Shown here: one piece after another, positions 7,312-28,591 of the stretch | How positions within the stretch are numbered: position 1 is the stretch's first letter | Layout of the letters: every line of letters begins with the position of its first letter | Assembly (NCBI GenBank): GCA_964645815.1 | Contig: CAZYCR010000003.1 | Location: forward strand, 1-36,930 | Length of the DNA stretch: 36,930 bases | Source of the DNA: an uncultured Gammaproteobacteria bacterium | GTDB lineage: Bacteria > Patescibacteriota > Patescibacteriia > UBA9934 | Direction: 5' to 3' | The notes under the pieces: model-generated | Told to the model about the DNA's origin: nothing | Databases searched by the model: none | Seen by the model: only the letters and a program-made list of their open reading frames with translations | Program-made: the position numbers and the translations under genes

Positions 7312-7345
7312 AACGCTGGCATAATGCAAAGGTTCGCGAAATTTG

Positions 7346-8626: not shown

Positions 8627-8644
8627 AGCGAGAATATTGTAGCG

Positions 8645-13901: not shown

Positions 13902-15221
13902 ATGCCTAAGAAAGCAACGAAAAAAGACTCGGAGGACGCTAAGAAATCAAAGACGCCAACGCTCCTGCGAGGTTTTCGCGATATCTTGCCAGAAGAACAG
14001 TTGATCTGGGAAAAGATTGAGAGTGTGGCTACCAACTTGTCCAATGCCTACAGCTTTGGCAGAATTCGTTTACCACTTTTGGAGAAACGAAATCTTTTTG
14101 AACGAACAGTCGGTAAGGGAACAGACATAGTTGAAAAAGAATTGTTTTCATTCGAAGATCAAGGCGGCGACAAGGTTGCCTTGCGACCGGAAGCGACAGC
14201 ACAAATTGCTCGTGCCTACATAGAGCACGGTATGGTCAACAAACCACAACCAGTGAAACTTTGGTACTTTGGTCCAATGTTCCGCTACGATCGGCCGCAA
14301 GCCGGCAGATACCGACAGTTTTGGCAATGGGGTTTGGAGGCACTTGGCTCCGATGATCCGATTTTGGACGCGCAACTGATTTTGATTATTGATCGTTTCT
14401 TTAAAGAGTTGGGACTCAACGTAACTTTTAAGATCAATTCTTTGGGAACTGTTGAAACTCGCCGTGAATATGTCATGGAATTGGTGAGTTACTTTAAGCA
14501 ATTCAGAAAGAAATTATCAGAAGTAGATAAAAAACGTTTGACCAAGAATCCTCTGCGGCTTTTGGATTCAAAAGAGGAAGGAATGGCTGAACTTAAAGTC
14601 GATGCTCCGCAGATTGTTGATTGGCTCGATGACGATTCAAAACAGCATTTCATGAAAGTGATCGAGTACTTAGATGACGCCGAAGTTACTTATGAGCTCG
14701 ATCCATTCTTGGTTCGTGGACTAGATTACTACAACCGCACAGTTTTTGAGATTGTTTTAACCGGCGATGACGACAGTTTGTCTCAGAATTCTTTGGGTGG
14801 CGGAGGACGCTACGATGATTTGGTGCCGCAGCTTGGTGGTCGCGAAGGAGTTGGCGCAGTTGGCGCAGCGATTGGTATTGAACGTGTGGTCTTAGCTTTA
14901 AAGGAAGCTGGCTTGGAAATGCCCAAGCAACGACAGGTTGATGTCTTCTTCTGTCAGTTGGGTGATGCAGCTCGCCGCAAAGGTCTTATGATTTTTGAAG
15001 AGTTCCGAAAGGCAAATATTTCGATCGCTGAAGCTTTTGGTAAAGGTTCGCTCAAAGCTCAGCTGGAAGCTGCGGATAAGCAAGCAGCTCGGATTGCTTT
15101 GATCTTGGGACAAAAAGAAGTGCTCGATGAAACAATTATTGTTCGCGATATGGATTCCGGCGCACAAGAAATTGTTGATGTGAGAAAAGTGGTGGATATT
15201 GTTAAAAAGCAGTTGGGATAA
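13902..15221 (+). CDS. hisS: histidine--tRNA ligase
   Basis: LLRGFRDILPEE, ALRPEATAQIARAY, FGPMFRYDRPQAGRYRQF, GGGGRYDDL, and an anticodon-binding C-terminus. The ATG at 13902 is 1 nt after the lepB stop. The track start at 13800 overlaps lepB and is rejected. Confidence 0.92.
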   Translation: MPKKATKKDSEDAKKSKTPTLLRGFRDILPEEQLIWEKIESVATNLSNAYSFGRIRLPLLEKRNLFERTVGKGTDIVEKELFSFEDQGGDKVALRPEATAQIARAYIEHGMVNKPQPVKLWYFGPMFRYDRPQAGRYRQFWQWGLEALGSDDPILDAQLILIIDRFFKELGLNVTFKINSLGTVETRREYVMELVSYFKQFRKKLSEVDKKRLTKNPLRLLDSKEEGMAELKVDAPQIVDWLDDDSKQHFMKVIEYLDDAEVTYELDPFLVRGLDYYNRTVFEIVLTGDDDSLSQNSLGGGGRYDDLVPQLGGREGVGAVGAAIGIERVVLALKEAGLEMPKQRQVDVFFCQLGDAARRKGLMIFEEFRKANISIAEAFGKGSLKAQLEAADKQAARIALILGQKEVLDETIIVRDMDSGAQEIVDVRKVVDIVKKQLG

Positions 15222-15240
15222 AAGAAGAAAAATTTAAACA

Positions 15241-15270
15241 AAAAGCAGGCTAGAAAAAGCCTGTTTTTTT
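15241..15270 (+). terminator. intrinsic terminator after hisS
   Basis: aaaagcaggc-tagaaaaa-gcctgttttttt hairpin followed by a T-run. Confidence 0.75.
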
Positions 15271-15298
15271 GTTTTAGGCCAAATTTGACTATTTTATA

Positions 15299-15327
15299 TT
15301 GACAAAAGCGAAATTTTATGCTAGATT
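15299..15327 (+). promoter_or_regulatory. promoter of GC-rich orphan A (TTGACA-N17-TAGATT)
   Basis: Consensus -35 at 15299-15304, 17-nt spacer, -10 at 15322-15327. GGAGG sits at 15342-15346, 6 nt before the ATG at 15353. Confidence 0.55.
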
Positions 15328-15352
15328 ATTACGTCAAAGTTGGAGGTTTGGC

Positions 15353-15700
15353 ATGTCCGAAGAAAACCGGGCAGATCTCGAGATCTGCTTCAAGAACTAC
15401 GTCTACGCCCTGCGGCCCACGCCGTACGGCAAGCTGAAGAAGCTGTTCCGGAGGGAGTCGGTGCACGGGTCAACCGTGTGCTGGATTTTCTCCGACGACA
15501 AGGAGTTCCCGGCCAGTGGCACGGTCGAGAAGCTGGAGGAGATTCGAACCTTCAGCCGCGAGCTCGGACTGAAGATCGTCGGTTCCGAGTTCCACGTACC
15601 GTGCTCGAGTGGCTGGTACGAGAAGGACCTCGACGAGGCTGATTACCGTATCTTCCGCTTCCCGCCCACGCGCGAGAAGTTTGAGGAAGCGCTAGACTGA
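15353..15700 (+). CDS. GC-rich orphan protein A (115 aa), unknown function
   Basis: ATG preceded by GGAGG. 96 of 115 codons end in G or C by hand count. Two 60-nt lines give 34/60 and 38/60 G+C. The track start at 15299 is a TTG lying inside the promoter. I recognise no family. Confidence 0.65.
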   Translation: MSEENRADLEICFKNYVYALRPTPYGKLKKLFRRESVHGSTVCWIFSDDKEFPASGTVEKLEEIRTFSRELGLKIVGSEFHVPCSSGWYEKDLDEADYRIFRFPPTREKFEEALD

Positions 15701-15748
15701 CCGCCCCAGAAAAGACCAACTCGGTCTTTCCGGGGCGGTCTTTTCTTA
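15701..15748 (+). terminator. strong intrinsic terminator after orphan A
   Basis: ccgccccagaaaagacc-aactc-ggtctttccggggcgg long GC-rich stem followed by tcttttctt. Confidence 0.75.
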
Positions 15749-15751
15749 TAC

Positions 15752-15780
15752 TTGACTAAAGTCAGCAAATTTGATACATT
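15752..15780 (+). promoter_or_regulatory. promoter of rpsU (TTGACT-N17-TACATT)
   Basis: -35 at 15752-15757, 17-nt spacer, -10 at 15775-15780. Purine-rich SD aaaagggg lies ahead of the ATG at 15807. Confidence 0.5.
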
Positions 15781-15806
15781 CTAGCCACCTAGAAAAGGGG
15801 AAACAC

Positions 15807-16055
15807 ATGTCTACAATCGATATCAAACGGAAGAAAGGTGAAAGTTTTGAAGCAATGTTTCGACGTTTTAGTCGACGCTTGCAGCAAAGCGGAAAAGTGC
15901 TCAGTTTACGATCTCGACGGACTCATTTGAGAAAGCCGAATCATAATAAAGTGCACGAAAGCGCCTTACGACGTTTGGAGATGGGGGCCAAGCGAGAGTA
16001 TCTGCTTCGATCAGGTAAACTGATTGAAGAAGATCGTCGCAGCCACCGCAGATAG
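15807..16055 (+). CDS. rpsU: 30S ribosomal protein bS21
   Basis: 82-aa, very basic. FEAMFRRFSRRLQQSGKV..RSRRTHLRKP fits the bS21 pattern. The track start at 15771 is a non-ATG upstream extension. Confidence 0.85.
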   Translation: MSTIDIKRKKGESFEAMFRRFSRRLQQSGKVLSLRSRRTHLRKPNHNKVHESALRRLEMGAKREYLLRSGKLIEEDRRSHRR

Positions 16056-16065
16056 TGTTTCTTTG

Positions 16066-16146
16066 GAAAACAGGCCCTTAATGCAATCCTGAACGAAGTG
16101 AAGGATCTCTCAAATCGGAGTTGCGTCAAGGGTCTGTTTTCTTTTT
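16066..16146 (+). terminator. long-stem terminator-like hairpin in the rpsU 3' region, carrying the dispersed repeat in its loop
   Basis: gaaaacaggccc (16066-16077) pairs with gggtctgttttc (16130-16141) over 12 bp including one G-U. A ttttt run follows. The 52-nt loop contains the inner hairpin ATCCT/AGGAT. Confidence 0.5.
16086..16108 (+). repeat. dispersed 23-nt hairpin repeat, copy 1 (atcctgaacgaagtgaaggatct)
   Basis: Exact reverse-complement match to 26558-26580. Confidence 0.9.
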
Positions 16147-16180
16147 GATAAAAGCAAAGGCCGACCCAGAGGGGTCGGCC
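16147..16180 (-). terminator. intrinsic terminator of GC-rich orphan B
   Basis: On the - strand: ggccgacccc-tctg-ggtcggcc stem, then tttgcttttatc. Confidence 0.7.
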
Positions 16181-16193
16181 CGTAGAACGAGAA

Positions 16194-16559
16194 CTAGATG
16201 GTGATGACGATGGAGACATCGCTGACGTCGCAATCCGTACATGAGTTGAACTTGGGATCGTCGAAGGTCTTCATGTGCTTCTGGCGATCTTCGGGACGAT
16301 CATGATCTTCGGGGCCGACGAACTGCTCGCGTGTCACGACGCAGAGGCAGTCGGAGCAGCCGAGCAGAAACTCGTCGGCCACATCCCAAACCTGCTTGGC
16401 GTCGATGGGCTCCTGGTTGATGACGATTGCCTCGTACAGACGGAGCTCGGAGTCGAGCGCCCCCACGACCGACAGCGCTCGGTTGCCGTTACAGGAGCTC
16501 ATGATCTTGAGGACGACCTTGCCGTCGTGGATCACGCTGATCACTGCTGCGATGCCCAT
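16194..16559 (-). CDS. GC-rich orphan protein B (121 aa), unknown function
   Basis: ATG at 16559 preceded by AGGAGAGG. Codons end overwhelmingly in G or C. The track start at 16607 lies upstream of the SD and is rejected. I recognise no family; the protein has several Cys residues (SSCNG, GCSDCLC, NSCTDCD). Confidence 0.65.
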   Translation of the reverse strand: MGIAAVISVIHDGKVVLKIMSSCNGNRALSVVGALDSELRLYEAIVINQEPIDAKQVWDVADEFLLGCSDCLCVVTREQFVGPEDHDRPEDRQKHMKTFDDPKFNSCTDCDVSDVSIVITI

Positions 16560-16586
16560 GTTCCTCTCCTGGTTAATGGACAGGGG

Positions 16587-16615
16587 AAGGTAACATATTT
16601 TTGGCAATCTGTCAA
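16587..16615 (-). promoter_or_regulatory. promoter of orphan B (TTGACA-N17-TACCTT on the - strand)
   Basis: tgtcaa at 16610-16615 and aaggta at 16587-16592 on the + strand, separated by 17 nt. Confidence 0.45.
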
Positions 16616-16674
16616 TGCTAGCTTACCAGAAGTATTTTTTGCCTTTTTGACCCGACTAGGGCAAAATTAAACGT

Positions 16675-17013
16675 ATGAAACATCTAGATAAGTATTTGAA
16701 TCAAGTTATTCACGTCACGATTGATCGACCAAAAGGGAGTAAACATCCTAAGTTTGATTTTGAATATCCAATTAACTACGGCTATATGCCAGATACTATT
16801 TCTGGTGATGGAAAAGAGATCGATGCGTATATTCTGGGAGTAGAAGAGCCATTAAAACAATTTACAGGGAAGTGCATTGCCATTATCGAACGCCACGATG
16901 ACGATGACCCGAAATTAGTGTTAGCCCCAGAAGGGATGATGTTTTCTGATGAAGAAATTATCAAAGCAGTGCATTTTCAGGAACAATGGTTTGATTCATA
17001 TATAAAACGTTAA
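16675..17013 (+). CDS. short inorganic-pyrophosphatase-like protein
   Basis: YPINYGYMPDT, GDGKEIDAYILG and DDDDPKLVLAP parallel the family I PPase blocks YPxNYGFIPxT, DGDPLDVLVL and DExDxKIIAV. At 112 aa it is shorter than canonical PPase. Confidence 0.6.
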   Translation: MKHLDKYLNQVIHVTIDRPKGSKHPKFDFEYPINYGYMPDTISGDGKEIDAYILGVEEPLKQFTGKCIAIIERHDDDDPKLVLAPEGMMFSDEEIIKAVHFQEQWFDSYIKR

Positions 17014-17040
17014 AAACCGCCCTCGGGCGGTTTTTGCTTT
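17012..17040 (+). terminator. intrinsic terminator after the PPase-like gene
   Basis: aaaaaccgcc-ctcg-ggcggttttt, then gctttt. Confidence 0.8.
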
Positions 17041-17077
17041 TCTCAGCCAATTATATAACCTCGTTAAGCTATGAAAT

Positions 17078-17106
17078 TTGACAACTTTTCCATAGATTGA
17101 TATTAT
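17078..17106 (+). promoter_or_regulatory. promoter of the type I R-M operon (TTGACA-N17-TATTAT)
   Basis: -35 at 17078-17083, 17-nt spacer, -10 at 17101-17106. The ATG at 17118 is 11 nt after the -10. The promoter is flanked and overlapped by CTATGAAA repeats. Confidence 0.55.
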
Positions 17107-17117
17107 CTCGATAACCT

Positions 17118-18818
17118 ATGAAAAATGTCAATACCTACAAAATCAGTGACGTTGCCGAGATGTTCGGAATTCACGAAGACACTCTTCGTAATTGGGAAAA
17201 AGAGGGTCTCATTACCCCTATTCGTATTGGGACGCGTGGAGACCGCCGCTATACCCAAGAACATATAGATCAGATCGTTGAGAAGAAACTGGCGAAGATC
17301 GTCCGTCGGCTTGATGAAGAGCATGAGCTTGAGGAAAAAATGACTCTTGCTCAGCTAAAACAGTTCCTCTGGAAATCGGCCGACATTCTCCGTGGCCGCG
17401 TAGACGGATCGCAATATAAGGAATACATCTTTGCTCTCCTCTTCTATAAGCGGATGAGTGACATTTGGGATGAAGAGTACCGAACTATTCTGGATCAGTT
17501 TCATGATGAGGCGATCGCGAAGGCGGATTACAATCACCGCTTCAATGTGCCGGAAGATTGTCGTTGGGGTGTCATCGCCGACCAGTCTGAAAATATAGGC
17601 GCGAAACTCAATGAAATTTTCGATAAACTCACAAATGCAAATAGTCCGAAGCTGGACAAGATTTTCAACAAACTCGACTTCGCGGACAAGGATCGTTTTC
17701 CGAACGAAACTATGCAACGTTTGGTGAATCACTTCTCCAAGCATAATTTTGCAAATCAATATATCAGCTCGGATGTTCTTGGTGATGCGTATGAATATCT
17801 GATTGAGCAATTCGCAGCGGGTGCGGGAAAAAAAGGCGGTGAATTTTATACTCCACGCGAAATTGAGCGTGTTATCATGCATATTCTTGATCCTCACGAA
17901 AAGGATCATATTTACGACCCGACTGTTGGTTCCGGTGGATTTTTGCTTGAGGCGTACCATTATGTGCGCGATAAGTATGATGAATCAAAAGCACGTTCGC
18001 TCTACCTCTACGGACAGGAGTTCAACATGAGCACGTTTACAATTGCGCGTATTAACATGTTCCTTCACGGTCTCGACAGTGCAGATATTCGTATGGGCGA
18101 TACGCTTGCGGATCCAAAATTCCTCACGACAGAAAACCAATTGCAAACGTTCGATATCTGCGTTAGCAATTTCCCCTATTCTGTGAAGGAATGGGCGCAA
18201 GATACATTTGCCGCAAATAGGTTTGGTCGACTGGATGGTTACGAGATGCCGCCAGAGAAAAATGGCGATTATGCATTTATTCTGCATATCATTAAGTCGC
18301 TAAACGAAAATGGAAAAGCTGGGGTCGTCGTACCACACGGAGTCTTGTTTAAAGGTGACGCGCCTGGGCGGATTCGAAAACAGATTCTAACGAACGATCT
18401 CATAGAAGCTGTGATCGCGCTGCCTTCTAAGCTTTTTTACGGAGTGGGCATTCCTGTTGCCGTGCTCATCCTTAATAAAAACAAACCGGAAGTTCGCAAG
18501 AATAAGGTGATGATTATTGACGCGGAAAAGGATTATCAAGAAGGTAAAAAGCAAAACCGTCTCCGCATCAAAGATATCGAAAAAATCAGCACGGCGTTTC
18601 ATGACTTCAAAGACATTGAACGCTATGCTCGCGTCGTAGATTTGAAGGAAATTGCTGAGAACGATTACAACTTGAACATCCGCCGCTATGTCGACACGAG
18701 CGAACAAGAAGAAACAATTGATGTGAGTGCTGAGTGGAAAAAATTGCAAAAGATTGAAAAGGAGGCAAAAGAAATCGATGAGAAAGTTGAGAATTTTTTG
18801 AAGGGTCTGAAGTATTAA
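17118..18818 (+). CDS. hsdM: type I restriction-modification methyltransferase subunit HsdM with N-terminal MerR-type HTH extension
   Basis: The HsdM N-terminal block LWKSADILRG starts just after Met75. AdoMet motif DPTVGSGGFL. Catalytic motif NFPY (an NPPF/Y variant). The first ~70 aa, YKISDVAEMFGIHEDTLRNWEKEGLITPIR..GDRRYT, form a MerR-like HTH. Confidence 0.9.
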   Translation: MKNVNTYKISDVAEMFGIHEDTLRNWEKEGLITPIRIGTRGDRRYTQEHIDQIVEKKLAKIVRRLDEEHELEEKMTLAQLKQFLWKSADILRGRVDGSQYKEYIFALLFYKRMSDIWDEEYRTILDQFHDEAIAKADYNHRFNVPEDCRWGVIADQSENIGAKLNEIFDKLTNANSPKLDKIFNKLDFADKDRFPNETMQRLVNHFSKHNFANQYISSDVLGDAYEYLIEQFAAGAGKKGGEFYTPREIERVIMHILDPHEKDHIYDPTVGSGGFLLEAYHYVRDKYDESKARSLYLYGQEFNMSTFTIARINMFLHGLDSADIRMGDTLADPKFLTTENQLQTFDICVSNFPYSVKEWAQDTFAANRFGRLDGYEMPPEKNGDYAFILHIIKSLNENGKAGVVVPHGVLFKGDAPGRIRKQILTNDLIEAVIALPSKLFYGVGIPVAVLILNKNKPEVRKNKVMIIDAEKDYQEGKKQNRLRIKDIEKISTAFHDFKDIERYARVVDLKEIAENDYNLNIRRYVDTSEQEETIDVSAEWKKLQKIEKEAKEIDEKVENFLKGLKY

Positions 18819-18822
18819 ATTT

Positions 18823-19536
18823 ATGAAAGACAAATTAATCAAAGCATCAAAAGTACTAGCCAAGGTTGTCTTTGTTTCGGTAGGAGTAATTATGTTCTAC
18901 TCTGGAGTTTCTTTTTTAATCAAAACACTAAATTTAACTATTTCGACTCTTATCCTGGAATACATACAAACGCTAGTATGGCCTAGTGTTATTTTCGTTT
19001 TAATATTTACATTCAAAACCAATTTTTCCGGACTACTTGATAGGCTGGCGGAGTTTTCTCTGCCCGGTGGAGTTACTGGGAAAATAAACCCGCAGGCACA
19101 ACAGCAAGATACAAAACCCGAGGACTCTATAGATAAAAGCGCAGATTTTACTCAACTATTGACTGAAAAAGAAGAACAACTCGCTGAATTTGTAACTTCA
19201 AATGTGGGTCTTGAACAAAAAATAAGTACACTAGAAATTGAGTTAGACTTCGAGAGAATTTATAACATAATTTTTGCTAGCCAAATTGATCTATTGTTAA
19301 AGATGAATAATTTCGACAGTGTAGAGTTTTCTTATGTGGATGACCACTTCAACAAAGCACAACAATCCGCAATGAGTATGTTGAACGGTTGGAATACGAA
19401 ACAATACATTAACTTTCTCATTAATAATGGTCTTATTGAATATCCTGTTGGAACCAATCTTTTAAAGATTGCACTTAAGGGCAAGGTCTTTCTGAGTTAT
19501 CTTTCAGTTCGTAACTATAAAAAGTACGGAATATAA
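18823..19536 (+). CDS. two-TM membrane protein with coiled-coil linker and C-terminal globular domain, unknown function, embedded between hsdM and hsdS
   Basis: 237-aa ORF starting 4 nt after the hsdM stop. Hydrophobic helices lie at about aa 12-35 and 40-65. A Gln/Glu-rich segment follows, then a ~100-aa C-terminal domain. AT-richer than hsdM. Confidence 0.7.
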   Translation: MKDKLIKASKVLAKVVFVSVGVIMFYSGVSFLIKTLNLTISTLILEYIQTLVWPSVIFVLIFTFKTNFSGLLDRLAEFSLPGGVTGKINPQAQQQDTKPEDSIDKSADFTQLLTEKEEQLAEFVTSNVGLEQKISTLEIELDFERIYNIIFASQIDLLLKMNNFDSVEFSYVDDHFNKAQQSAMSMLNGWNTKQYINFLINNGLIEYPVGTNLLKIALKGKVFLSYLSVRNYKKYGI

Positions 19537-19539
19537 GTT

Positions 19540-20688
19540 ATGAGCGTAAAAACAGTACAACAAAATATTCCGAGTGGATGGAACGTCAAACTCCTGGGCA
19601 AAGTGATTGTTGAAAAAGATAAATCTATACTGAAAGTCGGTGATGCGGACAATAGCAGTGTCTATCCATTCTTTACTAGTGGTGAAAAAGTTTTAAGTCA
19701 TAGTAAGGCTCTGGTGTCTGGTCGAAATATTTATGTGGCCACAGGCGGTGTAGCCAATATTAAATTTTTTGATGGTGAAGCAAGTTATTCAACAGATACC
19801 TATTGTTTTACTTCAAAAGAAGATACAGAATTTATTTACTATGCCCTCCTCAATAATTTAAGAGATATAAACAAACATTTGTTTTCTGGTAGCGGCTTAA
19901 GGCACTTACAAAAAAAGGACTTCAAAAAGAAGGAAATACTTCTCCCGCCAATTACAGAGCAACAAAAGATCGCAGAGATTCTGAGCTCAGTTGATGACGA
20001 CATTCGTGCGACACAAGATGTTATCGATCAAAATGAGCAAATCAAAAAAGGTTTGATGCAGGATTTGTTTACAAAAGGAATTGGTCATACGAAGTTTAAG
20101 GACAGCGAGCTTGGAAAGATTCCAGAAGAGTGGCAGATGGTTCATCTTGAAGATGTGGCCCATTTTACTAATGGAAAAGGTCACGAAAAACATATTTCAA
20201 AGGGTGGGAAATATATCGTTGTCAACTCAAAATTCATCTCATCTAATGGAAATGTGATTAAATGTTCAGATAAGGCATTTTTACCACTTTCCAAAGAAGA
20301 GGTTGTTATGGTGATGAGCGATGTTCCGAATGGTCAGGCTTTGGCAAAATGCTTCTTTATCGATGAAGACGATACTTACACTTTAAATCAACGAATCTGT
20401 TCATTCCGTTTTAAAACTGGCCTACCACGTTTTTATTATCATTTACTTAATAGAAATGCTTACTTTTTGAAGTTTAATAATGGAACCGGGCAGACTAACT
20501 TGCGGAAACAGCAAGTGCTAGATTGCCCGATTGCGCTTCCCCCAGAAGGCGAACAAAGAGAAATTGTTGATTTTCTTGATGCATTGGAACACAAATTGGT
20601 GTCGTGGCAAGAAAAGAAGATCGTACTAGAAAATCTTAAGGATGGCCTAATGCAAGATTTATTGTCGGGTGAGGTGAGAGTTGAGTAA
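19540..20688 (+). CDS. hsdS: type I restriction-modification specificity subunit HsdS
   Basis: Two target-recognition domains, each followed by a conserved helical spacer: LPPITEQQKIAEILSSVDDDI and LPPEGEQREIVDFLDALEHKL. Confidence 0.88.
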   Translation: MSVKTVQQNIPSGWNVKLLGKVIVEKDKSILKVGDADNSSVYPFFTSGEKVLSHSKALVSGRNIYVATGGVANIKFFDGEASYSTDTYCFTSKEDTEFIYYALLNNLRDINKHLFSGSGLRHLQKKDFKKKEILLPPITEQQKIAEILSSVDDDIRATQDVIDQNEQIKKGLMQDLFTKGIGHTKFKDSELGKIPEEWQMVHLEDVAHFTNGKGHEKHISKGGKYIVVNSKFISSNGNVIKCSDKAFLPLSKEEVVMVMSDVPNGQALAKCFFIDEDDTYTLNQRICSFRFKTGLPRFYYHLLNRNAYFLKFNNGTGQTNLRKQQVLDCPIALPPEGEQREIVDFLDALEHKLVSWQEKKIVLENLKDGLMQDLLSGEVRVE

Positions 20689-20692
20689 GTAT

Positions 20693-21691
20693 ATGGCCAG
20701 AGGCACATACCAGAGAACTAAGTTAGCCAATCGATCGACTCATGCTTTTATTTCTTCGCTTAATGCCTTCAATAATGCAAGTGATGAATACCGAGTTGAA
20801 GCCGCTTTGTTCTTGATGGTCAATGCCGTCGAACTGCTTTCAAAAGCCCTTGTATTAAAACATGGAGGAAAAATTTACGAGAAAGGTACAAAGGAGAGAA
20901 CGATATCTGCAGAAGCGAGTATTTGGCTATTGTTTAATCAGTATCACAAGATTGATGAGCTTGAACATGGAGCTTTGCAACAACTAATCTCATTGAGAAA
21001 CGAGGCATCACACAATATTTTACCGAGTGTCAAGAATGATGTGCTGCACTATTTAATGTTCTCTGCGTTTAAAGTCTACCGTCGACTTATCAATGACAAT
21101 TTTCGTTCTCACAACAGAATTTTTAAAAAAAGCTTCTTGTCTATTTCAACAGATGAAAACACTACTTACGCCGATAGTGTTGAGGGGTTGTTGAGATCAA
21201 GTAAAAAGTCCGAATCCCAAAGACGGCTTCTCTACTTACTGGAAAGAGGTGTGTCGTATAAAGGAGACACATACATTACACAGGATGCTTTTGAGAAAAA
21301 TTTTAGAAAACAAAAGAACAAAAGGTTGATTAACAGAAGTAAATTAGGCAAATTTTTATCCGAGGCAGATCTTCTGAAGGTTGTATTTATTCAGGCACCT
21401 AAAAATCACACCATCAACATTGATATTGCTAAGGGAATAGGTTCTCAGAAAGAAGCCCTTACCGTCTTTACCAGGCGTACTGATATCAATAAAGATTACC
21501 CGTATATCCTGACGACGTTAGCTGAAAAGTTGGGAAAAGGAAGAAATGTAACCTTACAAGCAATTAAGCAGTTGAGCGTCAAAGGTGACAAGGAGCTACA
21601 TCAGGAAGTAAAAACTGGTAAACAAAGTTCCACACATAAATATTCTGATGCCGCCTTCCAGAAATTGAAAAATCATTTCGACAATCTATGA
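20693..21691 (+). CDS. HEPN-motif protein (putative RNase) embedded between hsdS and hsdR
   Basis: Rx4H motif in LISLRNEASHN after an all-helical N-terminal half. The ATG at 20693 is 4 nt after the hsdS stop; the TTG at 20681 is an alternative start. The stop overlaps the hsdR start (ATGA). Confidence 0.7.
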   Translation: MARGTYQRTKLANRSTHAFISSLNAFNNASDEYRVEAALFLMVNAVELLSKALVLKHGGKIYEKGTKERTISAEASIWLLFNQYHKIDELEHGALQQLISLRNEASHNILPSVKNDVLHYLMFSAFKVYRRLINDNFRSHNRIFKKSFLSISTDENTTYADSVEGLLRSSKKSESQRRLLYLLERGVSYKGDTYITQDAFEKNFRKQKNKRLINRSKLGKFLSEADLLKVVFIQAPKNHTINIDIAKGIGSQKEALTVFTRRTDINKDYPYILTTLAEKLGKGRNVTLQAIKQLSVKGDKELHQEVKTGKQSSTHKYSDAAFQKLKNHFDNL

Positions 21692-24606
21692 AATTCAACG
21701 AACAAGTAACAATTGAAAACCACATCATCAAATTCCTAAAAAAGGAACTTGGGTTTGAGTTTGTGAAACCGGAGGAGATGAAAGGGTTGCGCGAGTACGA
21801 GACGGAATATCTTGTGACATCATATCTACGAGACGCGATAGCGAAGATAAATGGCATTTCCGATGAAACGATCCTCGATTCGATCATTCGCGAGATTAAA
21901 AAAGTCGATACGAACCAGGGTTTTTTGGAGTTGATCCGCGGCGGAGTTGATTTAGTTGACGGCAAGACGCAAAAAACGCACACCTATCAAGTGATTGACT
22001 TTCAGAATCCGGAAAACAATCATTTTGTTGTTACTAACCAGTTTTATTTTGAAGGAGATACAGAAAACATTCGTCCGGATGTTTTGGTATTTGTAAATGG
22101 TATTCCGGTTGTGGATATTGAAGCAAAGTCGGCGACGGCTGCGCTCTCTGTCGATTACACAAAAGGCATCGGTCAGATTAAGCGTTATGAACGTGTTGCA
22201 AAAAGGCTGTTTATTCCAAACTGTTTTAACATCGCAACCGATGGCGTTCAGACAGTTTATGGAGCAACATTTGCACCGGAGCAATATTTCTTAACTTGGA
22301 AGGATGAAGAACTCGATAAAAAGTATGGCGAAGGAGCGGTAGAAGTTTCACTGGAGAATCTGCTTAGACCAGAAAATCTATTGGACATCATTGCGAACTT
22401 TATTGTTTTTGAACAAACAAAAAATGGTCTGGTTAAAAAGGTTGCTTATTATCAACAAAAACGAGCCACGAATAAAATTGTTGAACGAGTTGTAAAACGA
22501 GATGGAAAACGCGGACTTATATGGCACACACAAGGATCCGGAAAGACGCTGACCATGTTTTTCACGGCATGGAAACTTCGTTTTCATCAAGAATTGGCTA
22601 GTCCAAAAGTGTTTATTTTGGTTGATCGTATTGATTTGGACGATCAGGTGTATGACGAGTTCACCAATCATGGTGGGAAAAACATTATTCGAGTTACTTC
22701 CCGCAAACATCTTGAAGAAGTAATCGGCTCGGATGAGCGTGGAATTTTTATTTCAACAATTCAAAAATTCTCCGAGTTGGGGGCTGGTATTAAAAACCTC
22801 AAAGAGAATATTATCGTTCTTTCTGACGAAGCTCATCGTGGAGATGAAGGTGTTGCAGGGATTAACTTGCGCGACTCTCTCGGCAATGCTTTCCTTTTTG
22901 GCTTTACCGGAACACCGATTGATAAGACGACTCTAAATACACACAGAAATTATGGTGAGGCTGGTGAGCGGTATTTGGACTATTATTCGATCGAACAAGC
23001 TATTAAGGACGGAACCACATTGCCCGTCACCTACGAAGCACGTCTTTCAAAGTTTTTCATTGATGAAGAGCGTGCTGACGAACAGTTCGATGAGTTGACA
23101 ACCGAATTGGACGACAAGCAAAAAGAAGAATTACTGAAACGGCACACGCGAAAATCTCAGCTTACAAACTTGGATGCGCGGGTTGATGCGATTGTTCATG
23201 ATATTGTTGAGCACTTTAAAGCCTATATAGAACCGAATGGATTCAAGGCGCAGGTTGTTTGTAACGGAAAGGAAGCGGTAGTGATGTACAAAAAACATTT
23301 CGATAAGTTACTCGGAAGCGAGGCGACGGCTGTTGTGTTTTCTTCCGGGGACCCTAACAGCACGCCAGAAGAACAGAAAAAGTACGAAACAGCAAAGAAG
23401 GAACGCGATGAAATTATTCGCAACTTTAAGAACCCAGCACATCCTTTGAAGTTTATTATCGTAACAGACATGCTTTTGACGGGCTTCGATGCCCCGATTG
23501 AGCAGGTTATGTATTTGGATAAGCCTCTGCGCGACCATACATTACTCCAGGCCATTGCTCGCACGAACCGAGTTTATCCCAATAAGGTAGCTGGAAAGAT
23601 TATCGACTACTATGGAATCACAAAGAATCTTTATGATGCGCTTGATTTTAGCGAAGATATCGTTGATTCGGCGATGGTAGATATCGATGTCATGAAGGAA
23701 CGATTTGTTGAAGTTTTGCACCAGAACATGGATTTATTCGGTAAAGTGAATATCGAAGATCCTTCCATGGAAAATCTGCGTCACAATATCAAGATTTTTA
23801 TTGACAACGAAGATAAGCAGCAATTCTTTAAGAAAAAGTACAACCAACTGAAATCGCTCTACGAATTTCTTGCTCCGGATCCATTCTTGAAAGAATATAT
23901 TCGTCACTTTGAATGGCTCACAAGCTTTTACATTGCATTTCAAAAGGAATTTTTCTCTACTCCAGATGCACACTTGCTTGCGGGTTACGGCGAGAAAGTT
24001 AAAGAGATTATCCAAGACAATGTTGATTATGCGGGGATTACAAAGACATTCCGTGAGCTTAGGATTGATGATGTGGCGGCTATGAATAAGCTGGACGAAA
24101 TGGACGATGAAGAAAAGGCTCTAAATCTTGAAAAAATGTTAAAGCAAGAAATTTCTGAGCACATCGACCTTAACCCTGCCTTCCAGACCTTTAGCGAGCG
24201 TCTTCAAAAAATCCGGGAGGATTTTGAACAGAAACAAATGGACTTAGCGGAGCGCATCAAACACTATCAGGAGTTAATGAAGGATATTCAAGATGCTCGT
24301 AGCATCGCGGAAGAAAAAGGATACACGCTCTCAGAATATGGGCTTTACATGGTCAGTAAGGAATATTTGCCAGATGTTAGTGAGGAATTAATGCATGAGT
24401 TCATTAAAGAAATGGCGCAAAAAATTAAGGACGTTCTTGATAAAGGTTGGAAGGAGTCATCGAAGTACGATTTCTTTATCAAGGAAATCAAGCGAACGTT
24501 CCAGGAGCTTATTCTGAAGGATTACCGCGGTAAAATTACTATCGACATTGGAGAATTCCACGGCTATGTGAACCGACTTGTCGACATGGTTATTAAATAC
24601 TTCTAG
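21688..24606 (+). CDS. hsdR: type I restriction enzyme endonuclease/translocase subunit HsdR
   Basis: N-terminal PD-(D/E)XK block DVLVFVNGIPVVDIEAK. SF2 helicase motifs HTQGSGKTLTM, LSDEAHRG, FGFTGTP, QAIARTNR. Long helical C-terminus. Confidence 0.92.
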   Translation: MKFNEQVTIENHIIKFLKKELGFEFVKPEEMKGLREYETEYLVTSYLRDAIAKINGISDETILDSIIREIKKVDTNQGFLELIRGGVDLVDGKTQKTHTYQVIDFQNPENNHFVVTNQFYFEGDTENIRPDVLVFVNGIPVVDIEAKSATAALSVDYTKGIGQIKRYERVAKRLFIPNCFNIATDGVQTVYGATFAPEQYFLTWKDEELDKKYGEGAVEVSLENLLRPENLLDIIANFIVFEQTKNGLVKKVAYYQQKRATNKIVERVVKRDGKRGLIWHTQGSGKTLTMFFTAWKLRFHQELASPKVFILVDRIDLDDQVYDEFTNHGGKNIIRVTSRKHLEEVIGSDERGIFISTIQKFSELGAGIKNLKENIIVLSDEAHRGDEGVAGINLRDSLGNAFLFGFTGTPIDKTTLNTHRNYGEAGERYLDYYSIEQAIKDGTTLPVTYEARLSKFFIDEERADEQFDELTTELDDKQKEELLKRHTRKSQLTNLDARVDAIVHDIVEHFKAYIEPNGFKAQVVCNGKEAVVMYKKHFDKLLGSEATAVVFSSGDPNSTPEEQKKYETAKKERDEIIRNFKNPAHPLKFIIVTDMLLTGFDAPIEQVMYLDKPLRDHTLLQAIARTNRVYPNKVAGKIIDYYGITKNLYDALDFSEDIVDSAMVDIDVMKERFVEVLHQNMDLFGKVNIEDPSMENLRHNIKIFIDNEDKQQFFKKKYNQLKSLYEFLAPDPFLKEYIRHFEWLTSFYIAFQKEFFSTPDAHLLAGYGEKVKEIIQDNVDYAGITKTFRELRIDDVAAMNKLDEMDDEEKALNLEKMLKQEISEHIDLNPAFQTFSERLQKIREDFEQKQMDLAERIKHYQELMKDIQDARSIAEEKGYTLSEYGLYMVSKEYLPDVSEELMHEFIKEMAQKIKDVLDKGWKESSKYDFFIKEIKRTFQELILKDYRGKITIDIGEFHGYVNRLVDMVIKYF

Positions 24607-24609
24607 CCT

Positions 24610-25170
24610 ATGAAAAAGGAGGTGCAAATTGAAAATAGTACGCTCCAATACTCGATAAAAAAGAGTAAGAGGGCGAAGCGAATGAGAATCGCAGTTTATT
24701 GCGATTGTTCGATTGTTGTTACATCTCCTCAATCGATTTCAGAAACCCAAATTCAAAAATTTATTCGACTGAAATCGGATTGGATTGCAAAGAAGATTGC
24801 ATTCTTCTCCTCTTTGCAGATACACCCTGATATCGCTATTCAGTCAGAACAACATTACTTACAACATAAAGAGAAGGCGTTGAAGACAATCTCTCAGAGA
24901 GTTCAGAAGCTGAGTGAAAAGTATCAATTTGAACCTAATCAAATTCGAGTAAAAATGTTAAAAACTAAATGGGGTAGCTGTTCTGGGAAGAAGAATCTCA
25001 ATTTCAATTACAAGTTGATTTTTCTTAATCAAGATTTGCAAGATTACGTTATCATCCATGAACTATGTCATTTAAAAGAGTTGAATCATACAAAGAAATT
25101 TTGGGCACACGTTGCTTCATTTATACCTGAATATAAGAAGATAAAAAATAGACTACAAATTTTTAACTAA
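24610..25170 (+). CDS. DUF45/COG1451 (YgjP-like) zinc-dependent hydrolase
   Basis: TKWGSCS and HELCHLKELNH (HExxH plus a downstream His). Starts 3 nt after the hsdR stop. Confidence 0.8.
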   Translation: MKKEVQIENSTLQYSIKKSKRAKRMRIAVYCDCSIVVTSPQSISETQIQKFIRLKSDWIAKKIAFFSSLQIHPDIAIQSEQHYLQHKEKALKTISQRVQKLSEKYQFEPNQIRVKMLKTKWGSCSGKKNLNFNYKLIFLNQDLQDYVIIHELCHLKELNHTKKFWAHVASFIPEYKKIKNRLQIFN

Positions 25171-25171
25171 T

Positions 25172-25918
25172 ATGCCTTTTTATAATCCACACCGAGGAGC
25201 ATCCTTCAACTACGGCGGGAAGCAATGGAAACTTAGCCGGGGGAAGATTGATCTCTTTCTCCGCTGCCCGCGGTGTTTTTATTTGGACAACAAACTCGGC
25301 ACCAAACGACCTACGTGCCCACCGTATAATATTAATACCGCCGTAGACTCGCTCCTCAAACAAGAATTTGATGGCTATCGGGCCCGGGGGATGAAACACC
25401 CTTTGCAGAAAAAATATAAAATCGACGCCATCCCGGCTAAGCATGAGCAAATCGATGATTGGCGCGAGAATTTTAAGGGTGTTCAGTATTTACACCAGCC
25501 AACCGGATTATTGGTTACCGGCGCTATTGATGATTTGTGGCAGAGTAAAAAAGGTGAGTATATTGTGGTCGATTATAAGGCCACGGCCAAGTCTGATCCT
25601 GTAACTGAGCTGAATGATGATTGGCACGAAGGTTACAAACGTCAAATGGAAATTTATCAATGGTTATTGCGTCAAAATGGTCTTAAGGTTTCCAACACCG
25701 GTTATTTTGTTTATTGCACCGGTCGGCCGGACGAAAAAGCTTTTGACGGTAAAGTGGAATTTGACGTGCATTTGATTGCTTACACCGGTGACGACTCATG
25801 GGTCGAAAAGACTCTAGCTCAGATTAAAAAGACCCTGAGTAGCAAAAAAATACCTAAAGCTGCCGCAGATTGTGAGTATTGTCAGTATCGAGCCGCAGCC
25901 GCTCGGCACGAAAAATAA
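25172..25918 (+). CDS. Cas4/RecB-like PD-(D/E)XK nuclease with four terminal cysteines
   Basis: CPRCFY near the N-terminus, GAIDDLW, VVDYKA, QMEIYQ, and C-terminal CEYCQY. Starts 1 nt after the DUF45 stop. Confidence 0.7.
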   Translation: MPFYNPHRGASFNYGGKQWKLSRGKIDLFLRCPRCFYLDNKLGTKRPTCPPYNINTAVDSLLKQEFDGYRARGMKHPLQKKYKIDAIPAKHEQIDDWRENFKGVQYLHQPTGLLVTGAIDDLWQSKKGEYIVVDYKATAKSDPVTELNDDWHEGYKRQMEIYQWLLRQNGLKVSNTGYFVYCTGRPDEKAFDGKVEFDVHLIAYTGDDSWVEKTLAQIKKTLSSKKIPKAAADCEYCQYRAAAARHEK

Positions 25919-25940
25919 AGTGTGCTATTCTAAAAACCAT

Positions 25941-28588: not shown

Positions 28589-28591
28589 AAC

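What the first reader, a model, noticed from the sequence alone, without database searches (positions are those of the whole stretch)
15299..16615. Two GC-rich orphan gene cassettes bracket the core gene rpsU
ORF A (15353-15700, +) and ORF B (16194-16559, -) are sharp compositional outliers.
- Composition: two 60-nt lines of ORF A count 34/60 and 38/60 G+C, and 96 of its 115 codons end in G or C. Lines of hsdS and rpsU count 24/60 and 26/60.
- Sharp boundaries: the shift starts at the start codon and ends with the terminator hairpin. The promoters (TTGACA-N17-TAGATT and TTGACA-N17-TACCTT), the ~20-nt leaders and the SD boxes remain AT-rich and host-like.
- Shared design: both cassettes have the same layout and both end in GC-rich stem terminators.
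- Function: neither protein matches a family I know.

This looks like two independently expressed acquisitions from a high-GC donor. For an epibiotic CPR cell, a high-GC host or its phage is an obvious candidate, but that is inference. Function could be host interaction, anti-defence or toxin-like.
Basis: partly seen in the sequence, partly recalled or inferred. Interest (0 to 1): 0.65.

Follow-up and report, generated by a model that had tools for sequence, protein, structure and literature searches.

The report
Two foreign GC-rich genes flanking rpsU
Two small, self-contained genes on either side of the ribosomal protein gene rpsU in an uncultured Patescibacteria (Uhrbacteria-like) genome were acquired from a source with about 60% G+C. 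One belongs to a previously unnamed bacteriophage protein family; this is a clear but ordinary kind of gene transfer into a recurrent insertion site.

Summary
ORF A (15353-15700, +) and ORF B (16194-16559, -) have 59% GC and GC3 of 0.83 and 0.82. The other 26 genes in the window have GC3 of 0.31-0.48 (z about 7).

Each ORF has a host-type promoter-like site, a Shine-Dalgarno box and a strong intrinsic terminator. Contigs assembled independently from four sediment metagenomes carry every junction at even depth, so this is not an assembly chimera.

Comparison with about 100 related loci shows that lepB-hisS-rpsU-yqeY is the ancestral order, with gaps of about 90 and 100 bp. ORF A's cassette fills the hisS|rpsU gap. 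ORF B lies at the edge of a 9.8-kb type I restriction-modification island in the rpsU|yqeY gap. A close relative (RpsU 90% identical) lacks both ORF B and the island. Both gaps also hold insertions in other Uhrbacteria, and several of those insertions are GC-rich too.

ORF B is not an orphan. It is a divergent member of an unnamed, mostly acidic phage protein family of about 110-140 aa with a BFD-like cysteine motif. The family occurs in huge-phage contigs and in an isolated 59%-GC jumbo phage. ORF A has no detectable homologue but codes equally well under a 59%-GC phage codon model.

Best reading: these are moron-like, horizontally acquired transcription units, probably of phage origin. Expression and function were not tested.

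The parts
13902..15221 (+). hisS (histidyl-tRNA synthetase), the left core flank of the first insertion site
   Evidence: 88% identical to the HisS of the closest Patescibacteria MAG. lepB-hisS-rpsU order is conserved in about 70 loci.
15240..15269 (+). Intrinsic terminator after hisS. It lies inside the inserted segment; relatives with a short gap have no terminator here.
   Evidence: Terminator scan. Intergenic sequences of L006 and L009. 32 of 34 nt (15235-15268) also occur in a different, deeper contig in all four runs.
15299..15327 (+). Promoter-like site of cassette A: TTGACA-N17-TAGATT with a TG extended -10
   Evidence: 10 of 12 matches.
15342..15346 (+). Shine-Dalgarno GGAGG, 6 nt before the ORF A start codon
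   Evidence: Read from the sequence.
15353..15700 (+). ORF A: 115 aa, GC3 0.83, pI 5.3, no detectable homologue
   Evidence: No hits. Its frame scores +37 nats under a 59%-GC phage codon model against +2 for the next-best frame.
15371..15388 (.). Perfect 18-bp palindrome GCAGATCTCGAGATCTGC inside ORF A (codons 7-12); significance unknown
   Evidence: Longest perfect palindrome in the window. Also listed as a hairpin.
15699..15748 (+). Intrinsic terminator of cassette A (nested GC-rich hairpin plus T tract)
   Evidence: I2, I5; -30.5 kcal/mol, z -6.9.
15752..15780 (+). Native rpsU promoter TTGACT-N17-TACATT. It marks the right edge of the variable hisS|rpsU segment.
   Evidence: Conserved in L006, L009 and L098. 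Homology with L098 starts exactly at 15752.
15807..16055 (+). rpsU (ribosomal protein S21), a native core gene with GC3 0.42
   Evidence: Pfam Ribosomal_S21 at 23.6 bits, below the 27-bit cut-off; tblastn to RpsU of relatives; composition.
16066..16147 (+). rpsU terminator: an extended 76-nt hairpin plus T tract. It holds about 48 nt more in its loop than the simple hairpin of relative L098.
   Evidence: I1; -36.7 kcal/mol, z -5.3.
16148..16181 (-). Intrinsic terminator of cassette B (GGGCCGACCC-CTCT-GGGTCGGCCT plus TTTGCTTTT)
16194..16559 (-). ORF B: 121 aa, GC3 0.82, pI 4.5, 6 Cys. A divergent member of an unnamed phage protein family with a BFD-like Cys motif.
16563..16570 (-). Shine-Dalgarno AGGAGAGG upstream of the ORF B start codon
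   Evidence: Read from the sequence.
16587..16615 (-). Promoter-like site of cassette B: TTGACA-N17-TACCTT with TGn. The -10 matches 3 of 6 positions and falls below the scan's threshold.
   Evidence: Read from the sequence; absent from the list.
16148..25937 (.). The 9.8-kb segment inserted between rpsU and yqeY. It holds ORF B, a PPase-like 112-aa gene, hsdM (with a MerR HTH), a 237-aa unknown, hsdS, DUF3644, hsdR, a YgjP-like peptidase and a PD-(D/E)XK nuclease.
   Evidence: Pfam. Relative L098 has rpsU-terminator-yqeY without this segment. The median rpsU-yqeY gap is 101 bp.
25941..26408 (+). yqeY, the right core flank of the second insertion site
   Evidence: Pfam YqeY 1.2e-41; tblastn.

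Best explanation
ORF A and ORF B are two horizontally acquired, self-contained transcription units ('moron-like' cassettes). Each consists of a promoter, an SD box, a foreign ORF and an intrinsic terminator. They sit in two recurrent insertion sites on either side of rpsU in a roughly 44%-GC Patescibacteria (Uhrbacteria-like) chromosome.

Shown:
- The coding parts keep the codon usage of a source with about 59-62% GC.
- ORF B is a divergent copy of a phage accessory protein family, so at least that gene ultimately came from a phage gene pool.
- ORF A has the same compositional signature and is statistically indistinguishable from B in codon usage.

Inferred:
- ORF A is most simply from the same kind of source as B.
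- The hisS terminator, the cassette terminators and the convergent arrangement would let both genes be transcribed on their own without reading into or out of rpsU.
- The AT-rich, host-type promoters were either supplied by an intermediate vector circulating among Patescibacteria or selected in place.
- The likely function is a phage-derived accessory role in phage-host conflict next to the type I restriction-modification island (about 40%). A recent, still intact passenger with little or no function is about as likely.
- ORF B has lost several near-invariant family residues, so it probably no longer does what its phage relatives do.
For: Foreign composition:
- GC3 0.83 and 0.82 against 0.31-0.48 for the rest, z about 7.
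- Codon log-likelihood ratio, 59%-GC phage model against native model: +0.52 (A) and +0.51 (B), against -0.45 to -0.62 for hisS, rpsU, yqeY and the PPase-like gene.
- GC1/2/3 of genes in a 59%-GC jumbo phage are 0.60/0.40/0.75, matching A and B.

Insertion:
- lepB-hisS-rpsU-yqeY order is conserved.
- Median gaps are 88 bp (84 loci) and 101 bp (50 loci), against 585 and 9885 bp in the window.
- L098 (RpsU 90% identical) has rpsU-terminator-yqeY and the same downstream gene, with no ORF B and no island. Its homology with the window starts exactly at the rpsU -35.
- L002 (HisS 88% identical) has different DNA after hisS.

Real DNA: contigs assembled separately from four runs span every junction at 100% identity and depth of about 5. 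There are no joints or variants.

Cassette signals: and the sequence.

Phage link for B:
- 27 homologues in a full HMMER scan, best E 3e-9.
- 54 homologues by profile search.
- Their contexts are phage-like, on contigs up to 597 kb, next to AcrVA2-like, Phage_ABA_S, ART, PARP, DNA methylase and sigma-factor genes.
- Six IMG/VR loci.
- gp18 of the isolated Tunturiibacter phage Tunturi_5.
- In those contigs the gene's GC tracks the contig's GC (0.28-0.58), whereas in the window it does not.

ORF A is coding-like: +37 nats in its own frame against +2 for the next-best frame, comparable to ORF B (+44 against +19). A and B codon usage are homogeneous, p = 0.43.

The design recurs: L004 and L008 carry GC-rich orphan ORFs with a TTGAC promoter, GGAGG and a terminator in the same gap.

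Literature: the definition of morons (PMC3594210); genomic islands, including a full type I R-M system, in Patescibacteria (PMC12455944).
Against: - No expression data exist, because no RNA run holds the locus.
- ORF A has no homologue among 1.84 billion representative proteins, so its origin and even its translation are inferred from composition alone.
- ORF B differs from the family at positions where 66-69 of the 70 sequences in the alignment (ORF B among them) agree: T3I, G22S, P106S, R107C, G111D, plus Y95H and W108T. This fits decay as well as it fits a new function.
- The closest ORF B homologues are only 33-37% identical and several come from AT-rich contigs, so no donor is identified.
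- No copy at 80% identity or more in another context is present in the same samples.
- The AT-rich promoter abutting a GC-rich ORF is not explained by simple one-step transfer.
- No integrase, att site or clear target duplication was found. Only an 8-bp palindrome, CAAATTTG, lies at both edges of cassette A: 7 copies in the window, 2.7 expected, and 3 of 100 shuffles reach 7.
- The window is chromosomal, so these are not morons in the strict sense.
Confidence: 0.75

Rival explanations
1. The cassettes are decaying relics: foreign DNA that arrived recently and has not yet been purged. ORF A may be just an open frame that persists because GC-rich DNA has few stop codons.
For: ORF B is the only one of the 70 aligned sequences that departs from the residue shared by the other 69 at G22, P106, R107 and G111, and it also differs at T3 (66 of 70 have T). 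ORF A has no homologue anywhere. The -10 of ORF B's promoter matches only 3 of 6 positions (against the scan rules). No expression data are available.
Against: Both frames are intact over 115 and 121 codons. Both show strong three-base periodicity and coding scores far above the alternative frames. Both keep an SD box, a -35 hexamer, a TGn extended -10 and a strong terminator. Patescibacteria genomes are streamlined, so non-functional DNA would be expected to be lost (established knowledge; inference).
Confidence: 0.2
2. The genes came directly from the chromosome of a high-GC cellular partner (for example the host of this epibiont), not from a phage.
For: The composition fits any source with about 60% GC. 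Other insertions at the same site in L019 and L042 are MopE-repeat lipoproteins, which look cellular rather than phage-derived. ORF A has no phage homologue.
Against: Every inspected context of the ORF B family is phage-like, and the family is found in IMG/VR and in an isolated phage. No high-GC contig with a copy at 80% identity or more occurs in the same four samples.
Confidence: 0.15
3. ORF B arrived as an integral part of the type I R-M island in one event. On this reading only ORF A is an independent cassette, or A and B work as a pair with the island.
For: ORF B lies at the left edge of the segment missing in L098. It shares a divergent 115-bp control region with the island's first gene. 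The family's neighbours in phages include DNA methylases and anti-defence-like genes.
Against: All other island genes have GC 0.33-0.45 and GC3 0.32-0.48, so ORF B has a different history from them. A and B are convergent and separated by native rpsU with its native promoter. Neither has a PADLOC or Pfam defence or toxin-antitoxin match.
Confidence: 0.1
4. The GC-rich ORFs are native genes with unusual composition, or an assembly or binning chimera.
For: None beyond the a priori possibility. Coverage is low, at about 5x.
Against: Both ORFs are absent from all roughly 100 related loci. The skew is concentrated at synonymous sites and unmatched by any other gene, including rpsU. Contigs assembled independently in four runs cross every junction at 100% identity and the same depth as the flanks.
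Confidence: 0.03

Closest known systems
Phage morons (e.g. HK97 gene 15; reviewed in 'The moron comes of age', PMC3594210)
   Same: An extra gene between two genes that are adjacent in relatives. [quoted passage not shown]
   Different: The flanks are core chromosomal genes (hisS, rpsU, yqeY), not prophage genes. No phage structural, integrase or repressor genes lie in the window. Expression has not been shown.
Chromosomal HGT hot spots and genomic islands in Patescibacteria, including islands carrying a full type I R-M system (PMC12455944)
   Same: Variable cargo lies between conserved core genes. A complete hsdM/S/R island is present in the window, and different cargo sits at the same site in relatives (paper).
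   Different: That study found mostly Patescibacteria-to-Patescibacteria transfers. Here the two small genes carry a signature of about 60% GC, foreign to the recipient, and they have single-gene cassette architecture.
Unnamed phage protein family of ORF B (alignments A1 and A2; includes the N-terminal domain of gp18 of Tunturiibacter phage Tunturi_5, PP885688.1)
   Same: Similar length and end-to-end alignment. K18, G25, F99 and N105 are invariant, and the C23/C68/C71 triad is present. Acidic like most members (median pI 4.7).
   Different: ORF B lacks the near-invariant T3, G22, P106-R107-W108 and G111. It is encoded in a bacterial chromosome whose GC does not match its own.
BFD-like [2Fe-2S]-binding domain (Pfam PF04324)
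   Same: The C-x-C ... C-x2-C layout and spacing are seen in 17 of 70 family members. 10 of 70 members give Fer2_BFD matches at E up to 1 (best E 2e-5, 25.3 bits against a cut-off of 26) over residues of about 20-61.
   Different: No member reaches the curated cut-off. ORF B itself gives no match and has only 3 of the 4 Cys. About 10 members have Ser at these positions. Cofactor binding is untested.
Integron gene cassettes
   Same: Small single-gene units of foreign composition accumulate at one site.
   Different: There is no integrase, no attC-like repeat shared by A and B, and each unit has its own promoter.

Membership tests
Moron (autonomous transcription unit added to a genome) | Extra gene located between two genes that are adjacent in related genomes | tested here: met
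   The hisS-rpsU gap is 585 bp against a median of 88 bp. The rpsU-yqeY gap is 9885 bp against a median of 101 bp. L098 has rpsU directly followed by yqeY.
Moron (autonomous transcription unit added to a genome) | Own promoter and own factor-independent terminator | tested here: met
   Met at the sequence level only. A: TTGACA-N17-TAGATT plus a hairpin of -30.5 kcal/mol. B: TTGACA-N17-TACCTT (weak -10, TGn present) plus a 10-bp GC stem and T tract. Activity was not tested.
Moron (autonomous transcription unit added to a genome) | Nucleotide composition different from the neighbouring genes | tested here: met
   GC3 0.83 and 0.82 against 0.31-0.48, z about 7.
Moron (autonomous transcription unit added to a genome) | Resides in a phage or prophage genome | tested here: not met
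   The flanks are lepB, hisS, rpsU and yqeY. The window has no phage structural, integrase or repressor genes. I therefore call these units 'moron-like', not morons.
ORF B phage protein family (alignments A1 and A2) | Significant full-length sequence similarity to members | tested here: met
   phmmer against 1.84 billion representatives: 27 hits, best E 3e-9, 27-38% identity over about 105-120 residues. tblastn to phage loci gives E from 1e-14 to 1e-3.
ORF B phage protein family (alignments A1 and A2) | Invariant K18, G25, F99 and N105, plus the Cys triad C23/C68/C71 found in 51 of 70 members | tested here: met
   All are present in ORF B.
ORF B phage protein family (alignments A1 and A2) | C-terminal motif F-N-P-R-W-x-x-G-T-A and N-terminal M-x-T (at least 90% conserved) | tested here: not met
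   ORF B has FNSCT..DVS and MGI. It is the only one of the 70 aligned sequences that departs from the shared residue at G22, P106, R107 and G111. It is a divergent, possibly degenerating member.
ORF B phage protein family (alignments A1 and A2) | Encoded in phage genomes | tested here: met
   This holds for the family, not for ORF B itself. The contexts are phage-like, there are six IMG/VR loci, and the family is in the isolated phage Tunturi_5.
BFD-like [2Fe-2S] domain (PF04324) | Match to the Pfam model above the gathering score | tested here: not met
   ORF B gives no hit. The best family member scores 25.3 bits against a cut-off of 26. 10 of 70 members match at E up to 1.
BFD-like [2Fe-2S] domain (PF04324) | Four cysteines in the layout C-x-C ... 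C-x2-C that bind a [2Fe-2S] cluster | tested here: inconclusive
   ORF B has S21 and C23 ... C68-x2-C71, which is 3 of 4. 17 of 70 members have all four. Cluster binding cannot be tested with these tools.
Integron gene cassette | attC recombination site, nearby integron integrase, usually no promoter | tested here: not met
   No integrase domain in the window. No repeat is shared by the two cassettes beyond 10-13-nt chance matches. Both have their own promoter-like sites.
Toxin-antitoxin or known anti-phage defence system | Adjacent co-transcribed partner genes and/or a match to known defence or TA families | tested here: not met
   A and B are convergent and separated by rpsU. No PADLOC, Pfam, NCBIfam or PHROG match: the only PADLOC hit is TGT at E 0.047 for A.
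Anti-restriction DNA mimics (ArdA/Ocr-like) | Highly acidic surface that mimics DNA; homology or fold similarity to ArdA or Ocr; inhibition of type I R-M | not testable with these tools
   ORF B is acidic (pI 4.5, D+E 21 against K+R 11) and lies next to a type I R-M system. There is no sequence match, and the structure model was too poor to compare (pLDDT 38.7).

The most novel reading that the evidence does not exclude
The hisS|rpsU|yqeY neighbourhood may be a dedicated capture site in Uhrbacteria. On this reading it repeatedly fixes promoter-equipped single genes taken from high-GC partners or their phages. GC-rich cargo at this site is also seen in L004, L008, L016, L019 and L042. The unameliorated cargo would then be a molecular record of the physical host (or the host's virome) of an uncultured epibiont. 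ORF A and ORF B would be active phage-derived conflict genes working alongside the adjacent type I R-M island.
Probability: 0.12. Interest if true: 0.6.

Novelty: new member of a known kind. Interest (0 to 1): 0.35.

Why it matters
This is a clean, well-bounded case of foreign gene capture in a streamlined Patescibacteria genome.
- It pinpoints two insertion sites beside rpsU that are used repeatedly across Uhrbacteria.
- It links one cargo gene to an undescribed family of small, mostly acidic proteins with a BFD-like cysteine motif, carried by phages including jumbo phages.

If the source of such unameliorated genes could be identified in the same habitat, it would give a sequence-based clue to the partners of uncultured epibionts. 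As it stands, this is ordinary horizontal transfer with unknown function.

Tried and rejected
- Family and homology searches: Pfam, PHROGs, PADLOC and NCBIfam scans of both proteins gave nothing. The word-indexed search of 5.8 billion proteins found nothing for A and only B itself.
- tblastn against GenBank phages and PLSDB plasmids found nothing for A. For B it found a spurious 35-aa match to an HNH endonuclease.
- IMG/VR scan for ORF A: none.
- PDB sequence searches, for ORF A alone and for the ORF B family profile: only chance-level matches, E at least 0.3.
- Structure prediction: single-sequence AlphaFold2 models of A and B were unusable (pLDDT 37.0 and 38.7), so I ran no fold search.
- Rfam, at gathering thresholds on the window and again at E up to 0.1 on the window plus L002: nothing in the window.
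- tRNA genes as integration targets: none in the window.
- Repeats flanking or shared by the cassettes: only short matches. The 8-bp palindrome CAAATTTG at both edges of cassette A is suggestive, but 3 of 100 shuffles give as many copies in the window.
- RNA runs: none hold the locus.
- Donor copies in the same four metagenomes at 80% identity or more: none.
- Extending the genome beyond the window through an exact-protein look-up failed, so genome-wide GC3 could not be assessed.
- I worried that GC2 (0.34-0.40) was too low for a high-GC donor. I dropped this after genes of a 59%-GC jumbo phage showed GC2 of 0.40.
- Similarity among the GC-rich orphans at this site (window A and B, and the L004, L008 and L025 ORFs): only L004_270 and L008_284 are related, at 28% identity.
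- L004_270 against phages: no match.
Full report
**1. The observation**

ORF A (15353-15700, +, 115 codons) and ORF B (16194-16559, -, 121 codons) are both present as described.
- Composition: ORF A has GC 0.592 and ORF B 0.587, in a window of 0.437 overall. GC1/2/3 are 0.55/0.40/0.83 for A and 0.60/0.34/0.82 for B.
- No other gene in the window exceeds GC3 0.48.
- Against 891 in-frame 115-codon windows taken from the other 26 genes, the two ORFs lie 7.0 and 6.8 sd above the mean.
- Their synonymous codon choice is the least native-like in the window. All 15 Lys codons are AAG, and there is no AAT, TAT, CAA, TTA, TTG or CTT.
- The compositional step is sharp for A: 30% GC in the 131 nt upstream, and a drop from 14 to 4 G+C per 20 nt after the terminator. 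It is softer on the start side of B.

**2. Expression signals**

| Unit | Promoter-like site | SD | Terminator |
|---|---|---|---|
| Cassette A | TTGACA-N17-TAGATT with TG extended -10 (15299-15327) | GGAGG, 6 nt before ATG | Nested hairpin plus T tract, -30.5 kcal/mol, z -6.9 |
| Cassette B (minus strand) | TTGACA-N17-TACCTT (16615->16587) | AGGAGAGG | 10-bp stem with 8 GC pairs, then TTTGCTTTT |

- The -10 of cassette B matches only 3 of 6 positions, so the scan did not list it. It is preceded by TGn, like the promoters of ORF A, rpsU and hsdM.
- rpsU keeps its own promoter (TTGACT-N17-TACATT, 15752-15780) and a long terminator hairpin (16066-16141, -36.7 kcal/mol).
- The layout is therefore three insulated units: hisS-T | P-A-T | P-rpsU-T T-B-P.

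**3. The DNA is real**

- ORF B's exact protein is recorded on a 1647-bp Logan contig of SRR14492172 that is 100% identical to window 16148-17794.
- Four sediment-metagenome runs of one study hold the locus.
- Their separately assembled contigs cross every junction without a mismatch, at the same depth as the flanks (about 5x), with no joints or variants. The junctions are hisS/cassette A, cassette A/rpsU, rpsU/cassette B and cassette B/PPase-like/hsdM.
- A chimera is therefore excluded.

**4. Organism and synteny**

- HisS places the window among Patescibacteria close to Candidatus Uhrbacteria. The best hit is 88% identical and named Uhrbacteria MAGs are about 60-71% identical.
- Across the fetched loci the order lepB-hisS-rpsU(-yqeY) is conserved as far out as Falkowbacteria.
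- The hisS-rpsU gap has a median of 88 bp (84 loci) and the rpsU-yqeY gap a median of 101 bp (50 loci). In the window they are 585 and 9885 bp.
- The rpsU promoter and leader are conserved with L006, L009 and L098. Homology between the window and L098 (RpsU 90% identical, 82% at the nucleotide level) begins exactly at the -35 hexamer (15752). Cassette A, including the hisS terminator and its AT-rich promoter, therefore occupies the variable segment 15222-15751.
- L098 has rpsU, a simple terminator, yqeY and then the same downstream gene as the window. The segment 16148-25937 is therefore an insertion. It comprises ORF B, a PPase-like 112-aa gene, hsdM with a MerR HTH, a 237-aa unknown, hsdS, DUF3644, hsdR, a YgjP-like peptidase and a PD-(D/E)XK nuclease.
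- All island genes except ORF B have GC3 0.32-0.48. ORF B therefore has a separate history from the island it adjoins.

**5. A recurrent, variable site**

- 15 of 84 loci have more than 400 bp between hisS and rpsU, and 6 of 50 have more than 400 bp between rpsU and yqeY.
- The cargo differs even between close relatives. L004 and L008 have flanks 76-89% identical at the DNA level, yet share only a 53-bp terminator/promoter piece inside the gap. L002 (HisS 88% identical) has unrelated DNA after hisS.
- Several insertions are again GC-rich relative to their genomes:

| Locus | Coordinates | GC3 of insert | GC of locus |
|---|---|---|---|
| L004 | 8256-9068 | 0.75 | 0.44 |
| L008 | 7543-8397 | 0.68 | 0.46 |
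| L019 | 6168-7694 | 0.98 | 0.53 |
| L042 | 7617-9653 | 0.80 | 0.48 |

- The L019 and L042 inserts are MopE-repeat lipoproteins.
- The L004 and L008 units show the same design as the window's cassettes: a terminator, a TTGAC promoter, GGAGG, a GC-rich orphan ORF, and a terminator ending in GGGTGGGACTTTTGCTTTT.
- GC3 outliers are not confined to this site. L008 has another at 119-577.

**6. What ORF B is**

- The word-indexed search found only ORF B itself. A full HMMER scan of 1.84 billion representatives, run with A and B concatenated, found 27 proteins matching the B half. The best E-value is 3e-9, identities are 27-38%, and most are 111-157 aa (one is 239 aa).
- The alignments (A1, then A2 with 70 sequences) give this consensus: MATQG..SIV..G.V..K.V.GCNG.NA..LA ... 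FGC..CLVV ... LY..TF.DPKFNPRWE.GTADY.
- K18, G25, F99 and N105 are invariant. The Cys triad C23/C68/C71 is present in 51 of 70 members, and a fourth Cys completing C-x-C...C-x2-C is present in 17 of 70.
- The only Pfam family that recurs is Fer2_BFD: 10 of 70 members match at E up to 1, with a best score of 25.3 bits against a cut-off of 26. The core is BFD-like in pattern, but membership is not established.
- No member carries an informative name: the sources give 'hypothetical protein' or nothing, apart from one 'uncharacterized Rmd1/YagE family protein' label.
- Their contexts are phage-like: arrays of small unannotated genes, on contigs up to 597 kb. Neighbours include AcrVA2-like, DUF6166, Phage_ABA_S, ART-PolyVal, PARP, DNA methylase, a sigma factor and an SNF2 helicase.
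- Six members lie in IMG/VR contigs of 9-463 kb.
- One member is the N-terminal domain of gp18 of the isolated 309-kb Tunturiibacter phage Tunturi_5, among replication and methyltransferase genes.
- In those contigs the gene's GC follows the contig's GC (0.28-0.58). Only in the window does it clash with its surroundings.
- ORF B is the most aberrant member. It alone departs from the residue shared by the other 69 aligned sequences at G22, P106, R107 and G111, and it also lacks T3, Y95 and W108.

**7. What ORF A is**

- I detected no homologue by any route.
- It is nevertheless coding-like. Under a codon model trained on 11 genes of the 59%-GC phage, its frame scores +37 nats against +2 for the next-best frame. 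ORF B, the positive control, scores +44 against +19.
- Both ORFs prefer that phage model over the native model by +0.5 nats per codon, while hisS, rpsU, yqeY and the PPase-like gene prefer the native model by 0.45-0.62.
- The phage genes have GC1/2/3 of 0.60/0.40/0.75, which is the pattern of A and B.
- A and B do not differ in synonymous usage (permutation p = 0.43, low power). A common type of source is compatible with the data but not proven.

**8. Interpretation**

- The features match the definition of a moron: an added gene between otherwise adjacent genes, with its own promoter, its own terminator and deviant GC (PMC3594210). The one difference is that the recipient here is a chromosome, not a prophage.
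- Acquisition of islands, including a type I R-M system, is documented for Patescibacteria (PMC12455944).
- I therefore read the finding as two moron-like acquisitions in two hot spots beside rpsU, ultimately from a gene pool of about 60% GC. For ORF B that pool is a phage gene pool.
- Shown: foreign composition, insertion status, cassette signals at the sequence level, and family membership of B.
- Inferred: transcription, the route of transfer, a shared source for A and B, and any function.
- The AT-rich native-type promoters next to unameliorated coding sequence are best explained in one of two ways. Either there was an intermediate vector already adapted to Patescibacteria, or a promoter was selected within native intergenic DNA. 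Neither was tested.
- For function, I put about 40% on a phage-derived role in phage-host conflict. The grounds are the location at the edge of a defence island, the family's neighbours in phages and the acidic nature of the protein. A barely functional recent passenger is about as likely, and the loss of conserved residues in ORF B points that way.

**9. Limits**

- No RNA data exist for this locus.
- Only 36.9 kb of this genome could be examined.
- The donor is not identified. The nearest ORF B homologues are 33-37% identical, and no near-identical copy lies in the same samples.

Noticed in passing
window 16066-16147: The rpsU terminator is an unusually long hairpin (76 nt, -36.7 kcal/mol). 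Compared with the simple hairpin of relative L098, it carries about 48 extra nucleotides in its loop. A 33-nt piece of that insert (16076-16108) also occurs in an unrelated 359-nt contig of run X2, which hints at a small repeated or mobile element.
   Followed up: partly
window 15235-15268: The terminator hairpin after hisS matches 32 of 34 nt of a different, more abundant contig (depth 7-8x, contigs of 1.1-9.6 kb) in all four metagenome runs. The flanks are unrelated.
   Followed up: no
window 15371-15388: A perfect 18-bp palindrome, GCAGATCTCGAGATCTGC, lies inside ORF A (codons 7-12). It is the longest perfect palindrome in the window, with about 0.001 expected in a 348-bp ORF. It could be an operator, an mRNA hairpin or chance.
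   Followed up: partly
window 15280-15287 and 15766-15773: The 8-bp palindrome CAAATTTG lies at both edges of cassette A. The left copy is followed by TTGACT-like sequence that resembles the rpsU -35. It could be a target duplication or a recombination scar, but the window holds 7 copies (2.7 expected) and 3 of 100 shuffles reach 7.
   Followed up: partly
window 17118-18818: The type I methylase HsdM carries an N-terminal MerR-type helix-turn-helix domain. The island also encodes DUF3644, a YgjP-like metallopeptidase, a PD-(D/E)XK/Cas4-like nuclease and a 237-aa unknown protein with a weak winged-helix match. It has no integrase.
   Followed up: partly
window 16675-17013: A 112-aa protein with only a partial inorganic pyrophosphatase match (Pfam 1.1e-06 over residues 28-83). 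It is much shorter than the full Pfam and NCBIfam pyrophosphatase models (153-185 positions), is divergently transcribed from ORF B, and is AT-rich (GC3 0.32).
   Followed up: no
window 28589-36928: A single open frame of at least 2780 aa with a signal-peptide-like N-terminus runs off the right end of the window. It is preceded by a protein with T4SS-pilin and Big_5 domains (26861-28588).
   Followed up: no
L002 7380-7875: In the closest genome (HisS 88% identical), the DNA after hisS holds GC-rich nested palindromes (7479-7556), then a promoter-like site and a GC-rich, RNA-like stretch that runs to the contig end. Rfam gives only spurious miRNA-hairpin matches.
   Followed up: partly
L004 8256-9068; L008 7543-8397 and 8502-9290; L019 6168-7694; L042 7617-9653: Other Uhrbacteria carry GC-rich genes in the same hisS|rpsU gap. 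These are orphan proteins distantly related between L004 and L008, and MopE-repeat lipoproteins in L019 and L042. The L004 and L008 units share a near-identical terminator (GGGTGGGACTTTTGCTTTT).
   Followed up: partly
L092 4632-4931 and 5001-5294: One IMG/VR contig carries two tandem paralogues of the ORF B family.
   Followed up: no
L117 3998-4600 (PP885688.1 20432-21034): gp18 of Tunturiibacter phage Tunturi_5 has the ORF B family domain at its N-terminus but lacks the cysteines, as do about 10 other members. Any metal site is therefore not universal in the family.
   Followed up: partly
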